Below the pieces are notes generated by a model that saw only the letters and a list, made by a program, of their open reading frames with translations, did not search any database and had not been told where the DNA came from. From a virus (taxonomy: Duplodnaviria; Heunggongvirae; Uroviricota; Caudoviricetes), in the IMG/VR virus record IMGVR_UViG_2671180437_000020: DNA of 7,449 bases; one strand, written 5' to 3'. This document shows, piece by piece, positions 238 to 7,449 of this stretch. A program made the translations under genes and the position numbers. Every line of letters starts with the position of its first letter. The first letter of the stretch is position 1.

Positions 238-271
238 CCGCAGCACGTTCCTGTATACGACGTGTCTGCGG
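238..271 (-). terminator. GC-rich hairpin 14 nt downstream of the tfa-like ORF stop; candidate intrinsic terminator
   Basis: Arms ccgcagcacgt (238..248) and acgtgtctgcgg (260..271) pair with a 1-nt bulge around an 11-nt loop. On the minus strand it is followed by UUAGUUUGUG. It is a diverged copy of the hairpin at 1288..1320. Confidence 0.35.
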
Positions 272-451
272 CATAATCCCAATGATTACTCCCTGACAGG
301 ATTTGCAGGCCACTCAATATCAGGTGCAGTTGATGTATCAACACGATTCAACAATACCCGATATTTATTCCATGCCTCCAGCAACGATCTTTCTTCCTCC
401 GTTGCGATTTCCAGATCTACAGCATCCTGCAGTGGCGCAATATACTCACTG
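238..451. repeat. direct repeat copy 1 (tfa 3' end plus hairpin), diverged copy of 1288..1500
   Basis: By-eye alignment of 238..451 with 1288..1500 gives roughly 85-90% identity, ending at ...ctcactg in both. The encoded C-termini match (…[41 protein letters not shown]…VRE). Confidence 0.7.
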
Positions 452-555
452 AATTCCTGGATGTAGAACTGTGTGGTGACGGTCTTCCAGCCATTCGGCT
501 CCTGCTGTATCGAAGCATACCAGGCTATTTCAATATCGCTATGCTGCGGCAGCAT
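286..555 (-). CDS. tail fiber assembly (Tfa)-like C-terminal domain protein, 89 aa; possibly a remnant
   Basis: The C-terminal ~55 aa are near-identical to the C-terminus of the 194-aa Tfa at 1335..1919, while the N-terminal 34 aa are unrelated. The ATG at 555..553 is preceded on the minus strand by AAGGGG with a 4-nt spacer. Stop is TAA at 288..286. Confidence 0.4.
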
Positions 556-611: not shown

Positions 612-1280
612 ATGGTGAAATTAATGAAAAAAAACACAGATGATGGGGCTAAAATTTACACACCACTTACCCTAAAGCTTTATGACTGGTGGGTTTTGGG
701 AGTATCAAATTGGCTTGCATGGGGATGTCCTACAAAGGAACACCTTCTTCCACACTTTCTGGAACATTTAGGTAACAACCATCTGGATATTGGTGTTGGA
801 ACTGGGTTTTACCTTACTCACGTACCTGAGAGTAGTCTGATATCTTTAATGGATTTGAACGAAGCTAGCCTGAACGCGGCATCTACAAGGGCTGGGGAAT
901 CAAAAATTAAACATAAAATTAGCCATGATGTTTTTGAACCTTATCCCGCGGCGTTACATGGTCAATTTGATTCCATTTCCATGTTTTACCTTCTTCACTG
1001 CCTGCCTGGAAATATAACTACAAAAAGCTGTGTAATACGCAATGCGGCGCAGGCCTTAACTGACGATGGAACTCTATACGGAGCCACAATTCTTGGCGAT
1101 GGAGTTGTGCACAATAGCTTCGGTCAAAAACTGATGCGCATTTACAATCAGAAAGGTATCTTTTCAAACACAAAAGATTCCGAAGAAGGCTTAACACATA
1201 TACTCTCAGAGCATTTCGAGAATGTTAAAACCAAGGTTCAAGGTACTGTAGTAATGTTTTCCGCTTCAGGGAAAAAATAG
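612..1280 (+). CDS. class I (Rossmann-fold) SAM-dependent methyltransferase, substrate unknown; 222 aa from ATG 612, or 218 aa from ATG 624
   Basis: Motif I LDIGVGTG is encoded at 783..806. An acidic residue ends the next strand (SLISLMDLNE), followed by HDVFEP and FDSISMFYLLHCLP motifs and LTDDGTLYGATIL, in the usual class I order. The pre-motif segment YDWWVLGVSNWLAWG loosely resembles the UbiE/COQ5-type N-terminal region. GGTGA at 614..618 favours the ATG at 624. The gene is visibly AT-rich compared with its flanks. Confidence 0.65.
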   Translation: MVKLMKKNTDDGAKIYTPLTLKLYDWWVLGVSNWLAWGCPTKEHLLPHFLEHLGNNHLDIGVGTGFYLTHVPESSLISLMDLNEASLNAASTRAGESKIKHKISHDVFEPYPAALHGQFDSISMFYLLHCLPGNITTKSCVIRNAAQALTDDGTLYGATILGDGVVHNSFGQKLMRIYNQKGIFSNTKDSEEGLTHILSEHFENVKTKVQGTVVMFSASGKK

Positions 1281-1320: not shown

Positions 1321-1500
1321 CATAATCCCAATGATTACTCCCTGACAGAGTTCGTAGGCCACTCAATATCAGGTGCAGTTGATGTATCAACACGGTTCAG
1401 CAACACCCGATACTTTTTCCAGGCTTCCAGCAATGAGGTTTCTTCCTCCGTTGCAATTTCCAGATCTGCAGCATCCTGAAGCGGCGCAATATGCTCACTG
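1288..1500. repeat. direct repeat copy 2 (tfa 3' end plus hairpin)
   Basis: Matches 238..451; see copy 1. Confidence 0.7.
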
Positions 1501-1919
1501 GCTACCTGCATCAGGTTGTTTTTTGTTTCTTCCGCCTCCCGGATCCGGAACAGTTTTTCTGCTTCCGTATCCTTCACCCAGGCTGTGCCGTTCCACTTCT
1601 GAAACTCCCCTTCCGGAGATAACCAGGTGACATTTTCCGGTAACGGACCGAGTTCAGAAATAAATAACGCGTCCCCTGATGCCACGTCATAAACTGTTTT
1701 ACCCCGATGGTCTTCAACAAGATACCACGATGCATCATCACTGTTGAAAACAGCCACGAAGCCAGCCGGAATATCTGGCGGTGCAATATCGGTACTGTTT
1801 GCTGGCAGACCTGTATGAGGCGGAATATATGCGTCACCTTCACCAATAAATTCATTAGTTCCGGCCAGCAGATTATAAATTTTTATGGTCCGTGCTTGTT
1901 CACTCATTCTGAATGCCAT
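1335..1919 (-). CDS. tfa: tail fiber assembly protein Tfa (lambda Tfa/orf-194 family), 194 aa
   Basis: At 194 aa it is the same length as lambda Tfa and near-identical along its length to that sequence as I recall it ([53 protein letters not shown]...). Its ATG at 1919..1917 overlaps the upstream stf-fragment stop (TAATG). Stop is TAA at 1337..1335. Confidence 0.9.
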
Positions 1920-2902
1920 TATGCAAGCCTCACAATATAGTTAAATGCGATGTTTTTGACGGTGTTTTCCGCGTTACCAGCAGCGTTAACGGTGATGGTG
2001 TGTCCATGTGAACCAATCGCAACCGAGTGCGTATGCGCACCAATACCTACAGTATGTGCGTGTGCACCTGCGCTTGCAGCAGTACCCGATACAGAGTGCG
2101 TATGAGCGCCTGCAGAAGAAGTGTTAACACTGTATTTAGAATAATCAGGTGCTCCACTTCCCGGAGCACCACTGGAACCACCTGAAACAAATGTCATCGA
2201 ATGGGTATGTGCACCGGCTGAAGCAGCCGTACCGCTAACACTATGGGTATGCGCCCCGGTGTTATTCGTGGATTTAGTGCCGTAATCAAACGACGATGTG
2301 GTTTTCGTACCCAAATCCGTACTGGATGCGCTGGCGCTGTGGGTGTGCGATTTAATGCCGTCCTGTTCCTGAGACAATACGGCACGACCACTGGCGGGCT
2401 TGCCCTTAATCGTCCAGCCACGCATATCAGGGATCACGCCTGACGGATAAGCCACTGCAAGTTTCGGGTATGCAGATTTGTCAAAAGTCTGCCCCTGCAT
2501 CAGGGCATAACCAGACGGAACGGTATCTGATGGCCACGGGATTGGTGCACCAACAGGGTAGCTTTCTGGTGGAATATTTTTCGAGGTATAAACTTCTGCC
2601 CAGTCTTCCTCAAAACCATAGCCATCTCTTGAAGAACGGTAGAACAGACCACCATTTCTGTAATGCGCCTTCATCTGCAGGGTCCGGCAACTTCCGACTC
2701 CGGTATAGAAGTTAACCAGAATATAGCTGTCGCCAGAGCGAGTGACATTGTAAGCGCCTGATTCGGCATTCCAGGGAACGCCCCCATCCGCATCGGCATA
2801 CGTATCCGTTGCTCTTCTGGCAAAAGCAGCAACATGCGCAGCGGTTAAAGTGATATCAGTAGAACCATCAAACGAAACACCAGATATTTTTATTGCTGTC
2901 TG
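1919..2902 (-). pseudogene. stf: 3' fragment of a side tail fiber gene (about the last 327 codons), cut at its 5' end by IS1
   Basis: The frame is open from the IS1 junction at 2902 to TAA at 1921..1919. It encodes the His-rich tip (GAHTHS/GAHAHT/GSHGH) and ends ...[22 protein letters not shown], which matches the lambda Stf C-terminus as I recall it. There is no start codon or RBS of its own at the 5' end, and the first Met is at 2674. Confidence 0.8.
2153..2902. repeat. direct repeat copy A of the stf 3' segment (750 bp), flanking IS1
   Basis: Aligns with 3672..4421 at a constant offset of 1519. I count about 13 mismatches by eye (~98% identity), all within 2411..2750. Confidence 0.85.
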
Positions 2903-2957
2903 GGTGATGCTGCCAACTTACTGATTTAGTGTATGATGGTGTTTTTGAGGTGCTCCA

Positions 2958-3233
2958 GTGGCTTCTGTTTCTATCAGCTGTCCCTCCTGTTCAGCTACTG
3001 ACGGGGTGGTGCGTAACGGCAAAAGCACCGCCGGACATCAGCGCTATCTCTGCTCTCACTGCCGTAAAACATGGCAACTGCAGTTCACTTACACCGCTTC
3101 TCAACCCGGTACGCACCAGAAAATCATTGATATGGCCATGAATGGCGTTGGATGCCGGGCAACAGCCCGCATTATGGGCGTTGGCCTCAACACGATTTTA
3201 CGTCACTTAAAAAACTCAGGCCGCAGTCGGTAA
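2958..3233 (+). CDS. insA: IS1 InsA (transposition regulator / N-terminal part of the InsAB' transposase), 91 aa, GTG start
   Basis: [40 protein letters not shown]... is the InsA sequence. The A6C frameshift motif (ttaaaaaactc) near 3205..3215 precedes the insB frame. Confidence 0.9.
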
Positions 3234-3655
3234 CCTCGCGCATACAGCCGGGCAGTGACGTCATCGTCTGCGCGGAAATGGACGAACAGTGGGGCTATGT
3301 CGGGGCTAAATCGTGCCAGCGCTGGCTGTTTTACGCGTATGACAGGCTCCGGAAGACGGTTGTTGCGCACGTATTCGGTGAACGCACGATGGCGACGCTG
3401 GGGCGTCTTATGAGCCTGCTGTCACCCTTTGACGTGGTGATATGGATGACGGATGGCTGGCCGCTGTATGAATCCCGCCTGAAGGGAAAGCTGCACGTAA
3501 TCAGCAAGCGATATACGCAGCGAATTGAGCGGCATAACCTGAATCTGAGGCAGCACCTGGCACGGCTGGGACGGAAGTCGCTGTCGTTCTCAAAATCGGT
3601 GGAGCTGCATGACAAAGTCATCGGGCATTATCTGAACATAAAACACTATCAATAA
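3152..3655 (+). CDS. insB: IS1 InsB (transposase catalytic part, expressed as InsAB' by -1 frameshift), 167-aa frame
   Basis: [25 protein letters not shown]...HYLNIKHYQ matches InsB. It differs from the K-12 IS1 InsB I recall at two positions (AKSCQRW and YDRLRK). Confidence 0.9.
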
Positions 3656-3665
3656 GTTGGAGTCA

Positions 3666-6600
3666 TTACCATCCACTTCCCGGAGCACCACTGGAACCAC
3701 CTGAAACAAATGTCATCGAATGGGTATGTGCACCGGCTGAAGCAGCCGTACCGCTAACACTATGGGTATGCGCCCCGGTGTTATTCGTGGATTTAGTGCC
3801 GTAATCAAACGACGATGTGGTTTTCGTACCCAAATCCGTACTGGATGCGCTGGCGCTGTGGGTGTGCGATTTAATGCCGTCCTGTTCCTGAGACAATACG
3901 GCACGACCACTGGCGGGCTTGCCCTTAATCATCCAGCCACGCATATCAGGGATCACGCCTGACGGATAAGCAGCTGCAAGTTTCGGGTAAGCAGATTTGT
4001 CAAAAGTCTGCCCCTGCATCAGGGCATAACCAGACGGAACGGTATCTGATGGCCACGGGATTGGTGCGCCGACTGGGTAGCTTTCTGGTGGAAGATTTTT
4101 CGAGGTATAAACTTCTGCCCAGTCTTCCTCAAAACCATAACCGTCTCTTGAAGAACGGTAGAACAGACCACCATTTCTGTAATGCGCCTTCATCTGCAAG
4201 GTCCGGCAACTTCCGACTCCGGTATAGAAGTTAACCAGAATATAGCTGTCGCCAGAGCGGGTGACATTATAAGCGCCTGATTCGGCATTCCAGGGAACGC
4301 CCCCATCCGCATCGGCATACGTATCCGTTGCTCTTCTGGCAAAAGCAGCAACATGCGCAGCGGTTAAAGTGATATCAGTAGAACCATCAAACGAAACACC
4401 AGATATTTTTATTGCTGTCTGAAGTTTCGTAGCTGTATCAGAATTTCCCTTAATCCCCTTAGGCGAATTAAGTGGTGTATTGATCGTCACTTCACCTGTT
4501 GCGTTATTTACAGCAAATGGTCGAAGACCGTTCCAGCCACCGTACTGGTCGCCTTTATCAGTCATGAGCAAGTAAGTATTTGCTCCATCATTTCGCCATA
4601 TGACACCGTAATCGCCTGCAATCATCCTTAACGCGTTCTGACTACGGACAATAACTTCATCATTAGCGTAAATCTTATTCCCGCTAATATCTGACTTACT
4701 CAAAACAGGATACGAACTATAAAATCCATTACCTTGTTTAAAATCTAAAATTAAATTTACAGCAACTGATTCAGAATAAGGATCAGTTGCACCAAATTTA
4801 TAAGTTGTTTCAGCAACAACATAATCAGAAGCAGGTGCAGTAACGGAGAGTCCTTCTTCTAAAAAAACCTCTACGGGAAATGCCCCACCTTCTATATAGA
4901 ATACGCTGTCTACGGTATCGCCTTTATTACTCATCAGAATGGAATGAATAGCGCGTTCCGATGATGAATAAGCCCAGAACATACCACAGGCATAGCTACC
5001 CCGGTCCGTCCAGCCGCCTGCGCAAACAAAACCATTAAACTCACAGTTATTCATTCTGTGATTAGCTGTGCGACTTGGCGTTGAAATGACAACGCGGGAT
5101 GCCCGATGGCTGTCATTCCTTTTTATCACTAACGGATAATATTTACCTTCCTGGACACCCGCCGGGGCATTTACCACAACGTATCGCATCCCCTTTTTCT
5201 GATCCACTTCACCTTTGCTGTAAACATTAATGTTACTCAGGAAGCGGTCCTTGTCGGGAATATCAGCACCGTTCTGGTCTTTCTGCAGACGTTTCTCTGC
5301 ATTGTCATAGGCTGCTTTTACTGCCTTTGGCGTTGCCGCCAGCGTTTCAGACGTGCTGTTGGTCGCACTGCTGAGCTGTACTACCCCCTTTTTCGTCGTG
5401 CTCGCATCCTCAAGCGCCACGGCGGATGCAATATCCTCTGCACGTTTTGCCGCTGTCTCAGCGCGCGTTGCCGCGGATTCCGCCGTACTTTTGCTCTGTG
5501 CTGCCGCCGTCGCACTGCCAGCTGCCTCTGTCGCCTTCGTGGATGCTGTCGTGGCGCTGCCCTTCGCTGCTGACGCCTGTCTGGTCGCCTCATCTTTTGA
5601 AGCAGACGCCGATGATGCCGATGACGCCGCCGAACTGGCTGACGATGCGGCAGCCGTTTTTGAGGATTCTGCACGGGTTTCCGACGCTTTCGCGTTCGTT
5701 TCGGATGTCTTCGCTGCGGAAGCTGACCTCGCTGCTGCGCTGGCCTGTTCAGTGGCTTCGCCAGCCTTCGTTGTGGCTGTTGAAGCAGACGATGCGGCAC
5801 TTTCTGCCGACTTTCCGGCAGCGGTGGCACTGGCTGAGGCCTGCCCGGCACTTGTTGATGCGGCACTGGCAGATGATGCAGCCGCTGTTTTTGAGCCTGC
5901 CGCAGCTGAGGCACTCTGTCCCGCTGCCGTTTCAGAAGACCTGGCGTTCGTCTCGGACGTTTTTGCCGCCTTCGCGGAATTTCCTGCCGCCGTTGCCGAG
6001 GAAGCGGCACTACTGGCGCTTGATGATGCGTTCGTTTCTGATGATTTCGCTGCCTCTTTTGAGGCCGCCGCATCCCGGGCTGAGGTGGCAGCTTCTGACG
6101 CCTTTGTGGTCGCTGCGGATGCAGAAGTGGCTGCAGATTTTTGTGACGCTGCCGCATTCGTTTCTGACGTTTTCGCCGCACCGGCACTGGTAGCTGCCGC
6201 GCTTTTTGAGGACTCTGCAGCGGCAGCACTTTTTGAGGCTTCAGTGGCCTTTGTTGATGCCGTTCCTGCGCTGGAAGACGCTGACTGAGCCGACGTCGCG
6301 GCCTGCCCGGCTGATGTGCTGGCTGCGCGTGCTGAGCCTGCAGCATCAGTCGCATGGGTTGCCGCCTCACGGGCTGATGTGCTGGCATCACTGGCTGACT
6401 TCTTCGCGGCTGCCGTGTTCTGTGCCACCGCGGACGCGTTACGCGCCACCTCTTCCACCATCAGTTCAAAACGGCGCAGTGCCTCAGGACGGGCATCATC
6501 CTCCGTCATGGCACCGAGAAAATCATTCAGCGTACCGGGTCGGGAATCTTCATACACGGTGATGGTCCCGGCATGTGACGGCGGGAATCCCTCCACCAAC

Positions 6601-6785
6601 AGAATAACGCTGTACTGCCCGTACTCAACGTCCATGCTGTAACGCCCGGCTTCATCCGGATTTTCTGAGGCCAGCGTGTTCACCACCACCGTGGTGCTGT
6701 TACGTTTTGCTTTCAGCTGGATTGTGCAGTTCTGTACCGGTTTTCCTGTGCCGTCTTTCAGTACACCTGAAATCTTTACTGCCAT
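3666..6785 (-). CDS. stf: side tail fiber protein Stf (lambda Stf family), about 1039 aa, C-terminally truncated by IS1; likely non-functional
   Basis: N-terminus [26 protein letters not shown]... matches the lambda Stf N-terminal domain. The ATG at 6785..6783 is preferred over the GTG at 6791 and is preceded by GGGGTGA. The frame runs into IS1 and ends ...GSGW-TAA (3668..3666), with the W and stop supplied by the IS1 terminus. About 76 C-terminal residues present in the 1919..2902 fragment are missing. Confidence 0.85.
3672..4421. repeat. direct repeat copy B of the stf 3' segment (750 bp), flanking IS1
   Basis: See copy A at 2153..2902. Confidence 0.85.
5418..6431. repeat. imperfect tandem repeats inside stf encoding an Ala/Ser/Thr-rich low-complexity shaft
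   Basis: Residues ~121-458 are almost entirely A/S/T/K/E, with recurring AAKTSETNA-type units. Corresponding DNA units recur at roughly 5693, 5941, 6029 and 6146. This GC-rich repetitive stretch produces long spurious ORFs in other frames. Confidence 0.6.
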
Positions 6786-6794
6786 ATTCACCCC

Positions 6795-6823
6795 ACAAAA
6801 AAGCCCGCCTGAACCGGCGGGCT
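6795..6823 (-). terminator. intrinsic terminator between lom and stf (minus strand)
   Basis: AGCCCGCC (6802..6809) pairs with GGCGGGCT (6816..6823) around a 6-nt loop. On the minus strand it is followed immediately by UUUUUU (6800..6795), then the stf RBS and start. Confidence 0.7.
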
Positions 6824-6849
6824 GTCATAACACTGTGTTACCTGGCTAA

Positions 6850-7449
6850 TCAGAATTTATAACCGACACCCACGATGAAACCGTCAGTGCGCCAGTCACC
6901 ACTGCCGGAGCCTTCATAAGCAATATCAATGGACACGGATTCGGTCGGGTTAAACTGCACGCCAGCCCCCCACGCCAGAGACGTGTTGCTGTGGCGACCG
7001 TCATCACTTCCGGTCAGCACATCGTGCTTTTTCCCCTTGTTGTCAGTTACGCGAAGATAATCCCCGGAGAAAGTCGACACACGGCTGTAAGCTACACCCG
7101 CCATCGCATACGCGCTGAACCATTCATTCACGCGCACAGACGGCCCCGCCATTACGCTGAACCAGCGGTTACGAACGGAATCTTCATGCCAGCGGGTATC
7201 GCTGTAACGGGTCAGCTGGCGATTCTTGTCTCCTGCATAGCTGAATGACGTCACCAGCCCCAGTGTGTCCGTAAACTCATAACGGTATTTCATGTTAATC
7301 CCGTTCAGATCATCACTGCCGGGGACGTTCGTCGAGGCATGAAGATACCCCGCGCTCAGCGTGGACTGATGTTCAGACGCCCATGCAGGCGCACCGGATA
7401 CGGCCAGACAAATGGCTGCGGACAAAATTGCTGCACAAACTTTACGCAT
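6850..7449 (-). CDS. lom: Lom outer membrane beta-barrel protein (Ail/Lom/OmpX/PagC family), 199 aa, apparently intact
   Basis: Signal-peptide-like N-terminus MRKVCAAILSAAICLAVSGAPAWA. The C-terminus ...DIAYEGSGSGDWRTDGFIVGVGYKF matches lambda Lom as I recall it. The start codon is the last 3 nt of the window, so the RBS is outside it. Stop is TGA at 6852..6850. Confidence 0.9.
   Translation of the reverse strand: MRKVCAAILSAAICLAVSGAPAWASEHQSTLSAGYLHASTNVPGSDDLNGINMKYRYEFTDTLGLVTSFSYAGDKNRQLTRYSDTRWHEDSVRNRWFSVMAGPSVRVNEWFSAYAMAGVAYSRVSTFSGDYLRVTDNKGKKHDVLTGSDDGRHSNTSLAWGAGVQFNPTESVSIDIAYEGSGSGDWRTDGFIVGVGYKF

What the first reader, a model, noticed from the sequence alone, without database searches (positions are those of the whole stretch)
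2153..4421. IS1 in stf without a target-site duplication, flanked by ~98%-identical 750-bp direct repeats
IS1 normally leaves a 9-bp direct duplication; here the flanking 9-mers differ. Instead, the 750 bp to the left (2153..2902) and right (3672..4421) of IS1 are direct copies of the same stf 3' segment. Reading the minus strand, the structure is stf(5' part)-B-IS1-B'-stf(3' end)-tfa. The copies differ at about 13 positions by my manual alignment. This fits an IS1-mediated rearrangement, for example recombination between IS1 copies in two different stf alleles or prophages, better than a simple insertion or a fresh tandem duplication.
Basis: seen in the sequence. Interest (0 to 1): 0.65.

Follow-up and report, generated by a model that had tools for sequence, protein, structure and literature searches.

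The report
Probable scaffold artefact at IS1-interrupted tail-fibre gene
The two 750-bp repeats around IS1 are in the sequence as given, but they are two different versions of a prophage tail-fibre gene segment, and their side-by-side placement rests on an unsequenced one-base gap, so it is most likely a draft-assembly artefact.

Summary
2153-2902 and 3672-4421 align without gaps, with 13 mismatches in 750 bp. IS1 is 2903-3670 (768 bp). Its flanking 9-mers differ.

The window equals a public draft contig (GCA_001283545.1, CYCU01000062.1) at 7448 of 7449 bases. The one difference is position 3671, the IS1|B' junction, which is 'N' in that record. So the right-hand junction was never read through.

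Sister assemblies have one intact 1115-aa stf at this trp-adjacent prophage, carrying B' only. B is the allele of a second, Qin-type stf that ends in IS1 at the same left junction. One sister assembly holds both loci on separate contigs. Others break, or switch path, inside the blocks the two alleles share.

The N falls on site 2152+1519, one of only 22 sites per 984 bp that distinguish the two alleles. Read-based extension would stall exactly there.

My reading, at about 0.65: two paralogous stf 3' ends were threaded and scaffolded in tandem across IS1. The B|IS1 junction and a small gene-conversion patch in B' are real. A true IS1-bridged, two-allele repeat remains possible at about 0.2. Interest is low.

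The parts
6850..7449 (-). lom (Ail/Lom outer-membrane protein, 199 aa), upstream neighbour of stf
   Evidence: Pfam PF06316, E = 7e-122. Annotated as Ail/Lom in relatives.
4422..6785 (-). stf 5' part (segment Y). With B' it forms a 1039-aa ORF (3666-6785) that stops 5 bases inside IS1.
   Evidence: Pfam phage_tail_N, Gp34_trimer and Collar; translation. No mismatch to the IS1-free parent L023/L018 anywhere from 3904 to 7449.
3672..4421 (-). B': the resident (parent-type) copy of the stf 3' segment. It carries a Qin-type patch at 3899 and 3903.
   Evidence: Carries the parent-allele base at all 13 sites that differ from B. It differs from the parent only at 3899 (C, parent T) and 3903 (A, parent T).
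3671..3671 (.). Unresolved base between the IS1 end and B'. It is 'N' in the public record. It corresponds to site 2152, which distinguishes parent-type (A) from Qin-type (C) alleles.
   Evidence: The only difference between window and L005 is 3671, A versus N. Site 2152 is one of 22 allele-distinguishing sites in 984 bp.
2903..3670 (+). IS1 (768 bp): IRL GGTGATGCTGCC..., IRR ...GGAGTCATTACC, insA 2958-3233, insB' 3152-3655, A6C frameshift site at 3209
   Evidence: Pfam Zn_ribbon_InsA, HTH_Tnp_IS1 and DDE_Tnp_IS1. 99% identical to annotated IS1A/IS1B copies. Inverted repeats.
2153..2902 (-). B: Qin-type allele of the same stf 3' segment, abutting the left end of IS1. In frame with segment X downstream.
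   Evidence: Identical at all marker sites to L003 and L006-L012. The B|IS1 junction also occurs in L006 and L025. No stop codon in 1919-2902.
1919..2152 (-). X: the last 78 codons of stf. Parent-type from 1919 to 2057, with the Qin-type base C at 2152.
   Evidence: Identical to L016 and L018-L024 over 1517-2151. L006 differs at 1937, 2012, 2024, 2036, 2048 and 2057.
1335..1919 (-). tfa (tail fibre assembly protein, 194 aa)
   Evidence: Pfam Caudo_TAP, E = 1.6e-43.
612..1280 (+). Class I SAM-dependent methyltransferase (222 aa), prophage cargo gene
   Evidence: Pfam methyltransferase domains; annotated so in relatives.
286..555 (-). Remnant of a second tfa (C-terminal 89 aa)
   Evidence: Pfam Caudo_TAP profile positions 75-130. 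266-462 is 88% identical to 1315-1511.

Best explanation
The genome carries two related prophage side-tail-fibre genes. One is the resident stf of the lambdoid prophage next to the trp operon. It is parent-type, normally an intact 1115-aa gene, and contains B'. The other is a Qin-type stf in a second prophage that is interrupted by IS1 just after its B segment. The two genes share identical blocks of 94, 227-259 and 152 bp around B.

In this short-read draft assembly, the path from the trp-side tfa and stf 3' end was threaded through a shared block into the Qin-type B-IS1 contig. The contig holding the resident B'-stf 5'-lom was then scaffolded behind it. Gap filling read out through IS1 to its last base. 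From the other side it read back through the shared block, until reads disagreed at the A/C site. That left a single N, which appears as 'A' at 3671 in the window.

On this reading the B-IS1-B' tandem, and the missing target-site duplication, are products of the scaffold.

Shown here:
- The N sits at the junction.
- The two alleles exist at separate loci in a sister genome.
- Sister assemblies break or switch inside these shared blocks.
- The B|IS1 junction is real.
- B' carries a Qin-type patch at 3899/3903, linked within 28 bp to a parent-type base. That indicates real gene conversion between the two genes.

Inferred, not shown:
- The threading and gap-filling sequence of events.
- That this isolate also carries the second locus.
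- That IS1 has a normal 9-bp duplication on its true right flank.
For: 1. The window is identical to L005 (GCA_001283545.1, CYCU01000062.1) at 7448 of 7449 bases. The only difference is 3671, which is N in L005, immediately after the last IS1 base.

2. 3671 corresponds to 2152. That is one of 22 sites in 984 bp (2.2%) separating parent-type (A) from Qin-type (C) alleles. Read-based extension has to stall there. GapFiller leaves gaps open where extension finds alternatives at equal ratio (PMC3446322).

3. IS1-free relatives at the same trp-adjacent locus (L018-L024) have a single X-A-B'-Y gene. Outside B they differ from the window only at 1157, 2152 and 2380/2384, which correspond to 3899/3903 in B'.

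4. Assembly GCA_001277635.1 holds both loci on separate contigs: an intact parent-type stf next to trp (L039), and Qin-type X-C-B-IS1 ending 104 b inside IS1 (L006).

5. Sister assemblies disagree exactly at the shared blocks. L041 ends at 2379. L025 joins the parent-type X-A to Qin-type B-IS1. L039 shows C at 2152 in an otherwise parent-type gene. The window shows C there where L025 shows A.

6. No independent record of the IS1|B' junction was found. It is absent from 5426 complete E. coli genomes and from JGI metagenomes. The 1039-aa product it would encode is not on record.

7. The accession style and the 104-b overhang fit a Velvet + SSPACE + GapFiller pipeline. Its authors state that these greedy steps can make false joins, with fragments of 300-500 bp, which is shorter than IS1 (PMC5320598).
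Against: - I cannot see reads, so the scaffold link itself is unexplained. Under common SSPACE settings, pairs implying a strongly negative gap would be rejected (my recollection of the program, not tested here).
- A true B-IS1-B' structure would also leave an N at 3671, because reads there would split between the IS1 end and X.
- The contig crosses the shared block from parent-type X into Qin-type B in two independent assemblies (L005 and L025). That could equally reflect a real recombinant.
- The Qin-type patch in B' shows that the two genes really do recombine in this lineage.
- The intact Stf protein predicted for this isolate under the artefact model (V963 with S1039 or A1039) is not in the protein collection.
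- That the pipeline was the Sanger one is an inference from accession style and contig-end length.
Confidence: 0.65

Rival explanations
1. The structure is real as given. A single IS1 is bridged by two direct copies of the stf 3' segment that derive from two alleles.

It would arise in two steps. First, IS1 transposes into the resident stf at the X|B' boundary. Second, a double crossover occurs with the co-resident Qin-type stf::IS1, one exchange in IS1 and one in X (2058-2151). Alternatively, a B-IS1-B-IS1 duplication made by inter-sister replicative transposition in the Qin-type gene is imported by homologous recombination. Gene conversion between the copies follows.
For: - Both alleles and an IS1 at the left junction exist in the lineage.
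- The switches between parent-type and Qin-type sequence lie in identical blocks, as homologous recombination requires.
- B' carries a real Qin-type patch next to IS1.
- Parent-type X is joined to Qin-type B-IS1 in two assemblies.
- The N replaces exactly one base, which preserves the parental spacing.
Against: - It needs at least two more events than the artefact model, including a new IS1 insertion at a GC-rich site.
- That insertion would have to fall exactly beside one of the 2.2% allele-distinguishing sites.
- The junction is unsequenced in the only record and absent everywhere else searched.
- L005 and L025 disagree at 2152. Under a single real structure that needs yet another event.
- Fragments of 300-500 bp cannot span IS1 plus its repeated flanks to support the link (PMC5320598).
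Confidence: 0.2
2. A real rearrangement exists, but not the one drawn. There are two options.

One is a reciprocal crossover, such as an inversion, between the trp-side stf and the Qin-type stf::IS1 of the second prophage. The stf 3' end by trp would then truly continue into B-IS1, and B'-Y-lom would now follow the other prophage's tfa-X.

The other is a larger tandem duplication in which sequence hidden by the N separates IS1 from B'.
For: - Parent-type X joins Qin-type B-IS1 in both L005 and L025.
- The Qin-type patch at 3899/3903 looks like a conversion tract next to a crossover.
- A single N can hide any amount of sequence.
Against: - Three sister assemblies show an intact gene at the trp locus (L023, L024, L039).
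- With C at 2152 on both products, extension of the B' contig should not have stalled at 3671 in L005.
- There is no direct evidence for either arrangement.
Confidence: 0.1
3. A fresh 750-bp tandem duplication, or an exceptionally long target-site duplication made by IS1 transposase, followed by point mutation.
For: IS1 sits exactly between the two copies, and the IS1-free parent has one copy.
Against: - All 13 differences are pre-existing allelic variants found as complete haplotypes in other genomes.
- They are clustered within 2412-2750.
- 1.7% divergence cannot accumulate while the flanks stay identical to sister isolates.
Confidence: 0.01

Closest known systems
False duplications in draft assemblies, where alternative haplotype or paralogue contigs are placed in tandem by a scaffolder with a gap between the copies
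   Same: There are two near-identical copies. A gap character sits at the copy boundary. That boundary falls on a variant site. The copies are separate loci in a better-resolved sister assembly. A multicopy repeat (IS1) lies at the join.
   Different: The copies here are paralogous prophage genes in a haploid genome, not heterozygous haplotypes. I could not inspect read-level evidence.
IS1 insertion in a lambdoid prophage side-tail-fibre gene (stf)
   Same: A canonical 768-bp IS1 truncates stf. Other E. coli genomes carry IS1 or IS5 at other positions in the same gene: HNSQ2209, MB50 and EA13.
   Different: No 9-bp target-site duplication is visible, because the true right flank is not in the scaffold, or has been exchanged.
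IS-bridged tandem duplications formed by unequal recombination between IS copies or by inter-sister replicative transposition. This comparison is from my knowledge of the Salmonella and E. coli duplication literature; no paper was read for it here.
   Same: The layout is copy, IS, copy in direct orientation, with a single-copy parent.
   Different: The copies are two different alleles. No IS sits at the outer ends. One junction is unsequenced.
Mosaic evolution and gene conversion among prophage tail-fibre genes. This comparison is from my knowledge of lambdoid, P2 and Mu tail-fibre mosaicism; no paper was read for it here.
   Same: Short patches of one allele lie inside another (3899/3903 in B'). 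Allele switches occur in identical blocks. The same stf module is found at the trp, prfC, DLP12 and Qin sites.
   Different: Nothing unusual; this part is ordinary.

Membership tests
IS1 family insertion sequence | About 768 bp, with imperfect terminal inverted repeats of about 23 bp | tested here: met
   2903-3670 is 768 bp; IRL and IRR match at 18 of 23 positions.
IS1 family insertion sequence | insA and insB' reading frames joined by an A6C -1 frameshift site | tested here: met
   Pfam Zn_ribbon_InsA and HTH_Tnp_IS1 (91 aa) and DDE_Tnp_IS1 (167 aa). AAAAAAC at 3209. 99% identical to annotated IS1A/IS1B.
IS1 family insertion sequence | Direct target-site duplication flanking the element (usually 9 bp) | tested here: not met
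   The flanks TGCTGTCTG and ATCCACTTC share no repeat of 7-14 bp. The right flank is separated from IS1 by an N in the source record, so this says little about the real insertion.
Lambdoid side tail fibre module (lom-stf-tfa) | Stf domain set and a downstream Tfa chaperone, in the order J-lom-stf-tfa | tested here: met
   Pfam phage_tail_N, Gp34_trimer, Collar, Phage_fiber and Caudo_TAP. Gene order in relatives.
IS-bridged tandem duplication (real) | Both copy|IS junctions read through in contiguous sequence | tested here: not met
   The left junction is contiguous and recurs in L006 and L025. The right junction is an N in the only record, and no other record was found.
IS-bridged tandem duplication (real) | The copies derive from one parental segment | tested here: not met
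   B is the Qin-type allele and B' is the parent-type allele.
IS-bridged tandem duplication (real) | Single molecules span copy, IS and copy | not testable with these tools
   No read data or long-read assembly of this isolate is available here.
Scaffold-level false duplication | A gap character at the boundary between the copies | tested here: met
   L005 has a single N at the position of window 3671.
Scaffold-level false duplication | The boundary coincides with a site that differs between the two source loci | tested here: met
   3671 corresponds to 2152, which is A in parent-type and C in Qin-type alleles; there are 22 such sites in 984 bp.
Scaffold-level false duplication | The two copies occur as separate loci in closely related genomes | tested here: met
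   GCA_001277635.1 has L039 (trp side, intact stf) and L006 (bio side, B-IS1) on separate contigs.
Scaffold-level false duplication | Read pairs and coverage contradict the join | not testable with these tools

The most novel reading that the evidence does not exclude
The B-IS1-B' structure is real. Two co-resident prophage tail-fibre genes, one carrying IS1, recombined through IS1 and through a short block of the gene. That left the resident receptor-binding segment and a foreign allele of it as direct repeats around one IS1. Simple repeat-repeat recombination could then pop out IS1 and regenerate an intact, chimeric tail fibre gene.
Probability: 0.2. Interest if true: 0.35.

Novelty: not a real feature. 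Interest (0 to 1): 0.1.

Why it matters
If the artefact reading is right, the finding matters mainly as a caution. Windows cut from scaffolded short-read drafts can show an IS without a target-site duplication, flanked by long diverged repeats, when two paralogous prophage genes are threaded together. A single masked N is enough to hide this.

The real biology underneath is ordinary. IS1 disrupts one prophage stf, and short gene-conversion patches pass between co-resident tail-fibre genes.

If the structure were real, it would be a tidy natural example of IS-assisted allele shuffling in a phage receptor-binding gene. It would still lie within known recombination mechanisms.

Tried and rejected
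- **Chance or miscounted repeat.** Rejected: the 750-bp ungapped match with 13 mismatches is exact.
- **Hidden target-site duplication of another length.** Rejected: no shared 7-14-mer at the flanks.
- **Fresh duplication or long target-site duplication.** Rejected: B and B' are complete natural haplotypes of two alleles.
- **Either IS1 junction in 5426 complete E. coli genomes.** The apparent 100% hits are two separated pieces, not the junction.
- **Exact junction patterns in public collections.** The scans were of GTDB representative genomes and JGI metagenomes. B|IS1 was sought in GTDB representative genomes and IS1|B' in JGI metagenomes. The expected IS1-TSD-Y junction was sought in both collections. 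All scans returned 0.
- **Exact look-ups of the truncated 1039/1041-aa Stf.** Not on record.
- **Exact look-ups of the intact Stf predicted under the artefact model (V963 with A1039 or S1039).** Not in the collection. This is uninformative, because only same-pipeline assemblies of the lineage seem to exist.
- **Protein search with the 251-aa remnant, to find the S-variant.** Returned cluster representatives only; no use.
I later reasoned that this test would not discriminate anyway, since de Bruijn assemblies collapse identical copies.
- **Paper search for the assembly accession.** Nothing.
- **Inferring Velvet k = 105 from the 104-b IS1 overhang.** Abandoned as unreliable. L039 shows T at 2057 with C at 2152, which such a k would forbid unless the combination is real.
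- **Tandem Repeats Finder on the Ala/Ser-rich part of stf.** Nothing above threshold.
Full report
**1. Observation**

At offset 1519 the window is identical from 2153-2902 to 3672-4421, apart from 13 substitutions. These lie at 2412, 2453, 2454, 2471, 2549, 2552, 2555, 2575, 2621, 2624, 2680, 2741 and 2750, which gives 98.27% identity. Identity vanishes immediately outside this span.

Between the copies lies a canonical IS1 at 2903-3670 (768 bp). Its inverted repeats match at 18 of 23 positions. It has insA, insB' and an A6C frameshift site at 3209. It is 99% identical to annotated IS1A and IS1B copies.

The flanks...TGCTGTCTG on the left and ATCCACTTC... on the right, share no repeat of 7-14 bp.

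**2. Anatomy**

On the minus strand the window reads as follows:

| Feature | Coordinates | Note |
|---|---|---|
| lom | 6850-7449 | |
| stf 5' part plus B' | ORF 3666-6785 | 1039 aa, stops 5 bases inside IS1 |
| IS1 | 2903-3670 | |
| B plus the last 78 stf codons (X) | 1919-2902 | open, in frame |
| tfa | 1335-1919 | |
| methyltransferase | 612-1280 | plus strand |
| tfa remnant | 286-555 | |

This is the right-hand end of a lambdoid prophage.

**3. Source**

The 251-aa remnant led to L005 (GCA_001283545.1, contig CYCU01000062.1, 19 kb), where the module lies beside yciGFE-trpABCDE. L005 matches the window at 7448 of 7449 bases. The single difference is window 3671, which is 'A' in the window and 'N' in L005. 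That is the one base between the IS1 terminus and B'.

The window's 1039-aa product, which needs that 'A', is not on record anywhere. I infer that the window is this record with the N written as a base. In any case, the IS1|B' junction has never been read through in a public sequence.

**4. Relatives without IS1**

Eight assemblies carry the same trp-adjacent prophage with one intact 1115-aa stf. These are L018-L020, L022, L023, L024, L036 and L038 (L036 is the same contig as L018). All have the layout X-A-B'-Y.

They differ from the window only at these sites:
- 1157
- 2152 (A in the relatives)
- 2380/2384, equivalent to 3899/3903 (T,T in the relatives; C,A in both window copies)
- the 13 B/B' sites, where they carry B'

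So the window equals this parent plus 1519 extra bases, 2152-3670, made up of C + B + IS1. The same stf also occurs in a prophage next to prfC (L013-L017), at 99.8% identity to 3671-7449.

**5. Origin of B**

B, together with C at 2152 and C,A at 2380/2384, is the haplotype of Qin-type stf genes. It occurs in L003 and L006-L012, next to tfaQ-pinQ or in a bio-side prophage.

L006 (GCA_001277635.1, contig 45) carries the identical B|IS1 junction. It matches the window perfectly over 2058-3006 and ends 104 b inside IS1. Left of 2058 it carries a different X and tfa.

So B and B' are two pre-existing alleles. A fresh duplication or a long target-site duplication is excluded.

**6. Sister assemblies disagree exactly at the shared blocks**

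The two alleles share identical blocks at 2058-2151, 2153-2379 and 2751-2902. In the window the second block extends to 2411.

| Record | 2057 | 2152 | 2380/2384 | Continues as |
|---|---|---|---|---|
| Parent (L018-L024) | T | A | T,T | B' |
| L039 | T | C | T,T | B' |
| L006 | C | C | C,A | B-IS1 |
| L025 | T | A | C,A | B-IS1 (contig ends 104 b inside IS1) |
| L041 | T | A | contig ends at 2379 | - |
| Window / L005 | T | C | C,A | B-IS1-N-(C,A)-B' |

L039 and L006 are two contigs of one assembly. That genome therefore holds an intact parent-type stf by trp and a separate Qin-type stf::IS1. L041's break at 2379 shows that both the T,T and the C,A paths leave the shared block in that genome too.

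**7. Why I favour a scaffold artefact for the right junction**

(a) The only record has a gap there.

(b) The gap sits on site 2152+1519, one of only 22 allele-distinguishing sites in 984 bp (2.2%). If reads carrying X-A-TCCACTT and reads carrying X-C-TCCACTT both exist, leftward extension of the B' contig must stall exactly there. Rightward extension through multicopy IS1 must stall at its last base. GapFiller's authors describe exactly such residual gaps (PMC3446322). A real IS1 insertion would land beside that site only by chance.

(c) The ingredients, two loci sharing blocks of 94-354 bp, are present in the lineage. Sister assemblies show every outcome of resolving those blocks: correct, broken and switched.

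(d) The A/C disagreement at 2152 between L005 and L025, and the odd C in L039, are easy to explain as collapse or mis-phasing of an isolated variant between two repeat blocks. As real events, each needs its own extra recombination.

(e) The likely pipeline is Velvet, then SSPACE down to 5 read pairs, then 120 rounds of GapFiller, with fragments of 300-500 bp. Its authors say it can make false joins. Such fragments cannot span IS1 plus its repeated flanks (PMC5320598).

(f) No independent trace of the junction exists in complete genomes, in metagenomes or in the protein collection.

**8. What still looks real**

The B|IS1 junction is real. It has no gap, occurs in three assemblies and occurs in two contexts.

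In the B' copy, C at 3899 and A at 3903 lie 28 bp from the B'-specific A at 3931. That combination must sit on single reads, and it is absent from every intact relative. I read it as a short gene-conversion patch from the Qin-type gene into the resident gene. The patch also lengthens the shared block to 259-354 bp, which may be why this particular assembly went wrong.

**9. What argues the other way**

I cannot see reads. A true B-IS1-B' would also leave an N at 3671. Two assemblies thread parent-type X into Qin-type B-IS1. The lineage demonstrably recombines these genes. I cannot reconstruct with certainty how the scaffolder obtained its link.

For these reasons I keep a real IS1-bridged two-allele repeat at about 0.2. 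It would need an IS1 insertion at the X|B' boundary, followed by crossovers in IS1 and in X. Alternatively it would need import of a B-IS1-B-IS1 duplication made by inter-sister replicative transposition. I keep another real arrangement at about 0.1. That would be a reciprocal exchange between the two prophages, or a larger duplication hidden by the N.

**10. Comparison with known things, and verdict**

IS1 itself and the lom-stf-tfa module are textbook members of their families. Only the target-site duplication fails, and that test is void if the right flank is not the true one.

As an IS-bridged tandem duplication, the structure fails two defining tests: both junctions read through, and a single parental origin of the copies. 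As a scaffold-level false duplication, it meets every test I could run.

Verdict: the string is as described, but the feature is most likely not real. The underlying biology is ordinary: IS1 in a prophage tail-fibre gene, and gene conversion between tail-fibre paralogues. Interest is 0.1.

Noticed in passing
window 3899 and 3903 (B' copy); parent relatives L018-L024: B' carries the Qin-type bases C and A at two sites where every IS1-free parent has T,T. These lie only 28 bp from a parent-type marker (3931). It looks like a short real gene-conversion patch between co-resident tail-fibre genes. It changes I963 to V in Stf.
   Followed up: partly
window 266-462 versus 1315-1511; methyltransferase gene at 612-1280: An 88%-identical direct repeat consists of the tfa 3' end and a downstream tfa remnant. 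The two bracket a SAM-dependent methyltransferase gene on the opposite strand. This suggests a cargo gene inserted by recombination between tfa copies.
   Followed up: no
window 5336-6440 (stf 5' part): There is a long Ala/Ser/Thr-rich region with many degenerate 21-bp-register repeats (repeat finder families D2, D4-D8). Tandem Repeats Finder reports nothing above threshold.
   Followed up: partly
L013-L017, about 450 b downstream of tfa (for example L013 12378-14006): In relatives where the same stf-tfa module sits next to prfC, the methyltransferase is replaced by a 534-542-aa protein with reverse-transcriptase and TIR domains. This is a likely anti-phage defence cargo gene.
   Followed up: no
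L039 (GCA_001277635.1, contig 61), at the site equivalent to window 2152: An otherwise parent-type intact stf shows the Qin-type base C at 2152, while the same assembly also holds the Qin-type stf::IS1 (L006). This is either a one-marker conversion or the collapse of an isolated variant between repeat blocks during assembly.
   Followed up: partly
L003 (E. coli HNSQ2209) 2329-5275; hits H31 (MB50) and H46 (EA13): The same stf is hit by IS elements at other positions in other strains. HNSQ2209 has IS5 and IS1 in one gene, with about 200 bp missing next to IS1. MB50 and EA13 have IS1 a few hundred bp from the sites seen here. stf seems to be a frequent IS target.
   Followed up: no
one search hit table: Many database entries name this tail-fibre protein 'short-chain fatty acid transporter'. 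This appears to be a propagated misannotation.
   Followed up: no
window 1157 (methyltransferase gene): T in the window and L005, but C in all ten related loci examined. It is a private substitution at a third codon position.
   Followed up: no
L006 1789-4002: In the second prophage, tfa is followed by a Mn-catalase gene and yciE/yciF/yciG-like genes, and then ybhB-bioA. So paralogues of the genes that flank the trp-side prophage lie beside the bio-side prophage. This is another repeat that could confuse assemblies or mediate rearrangement.
   Followed up: no
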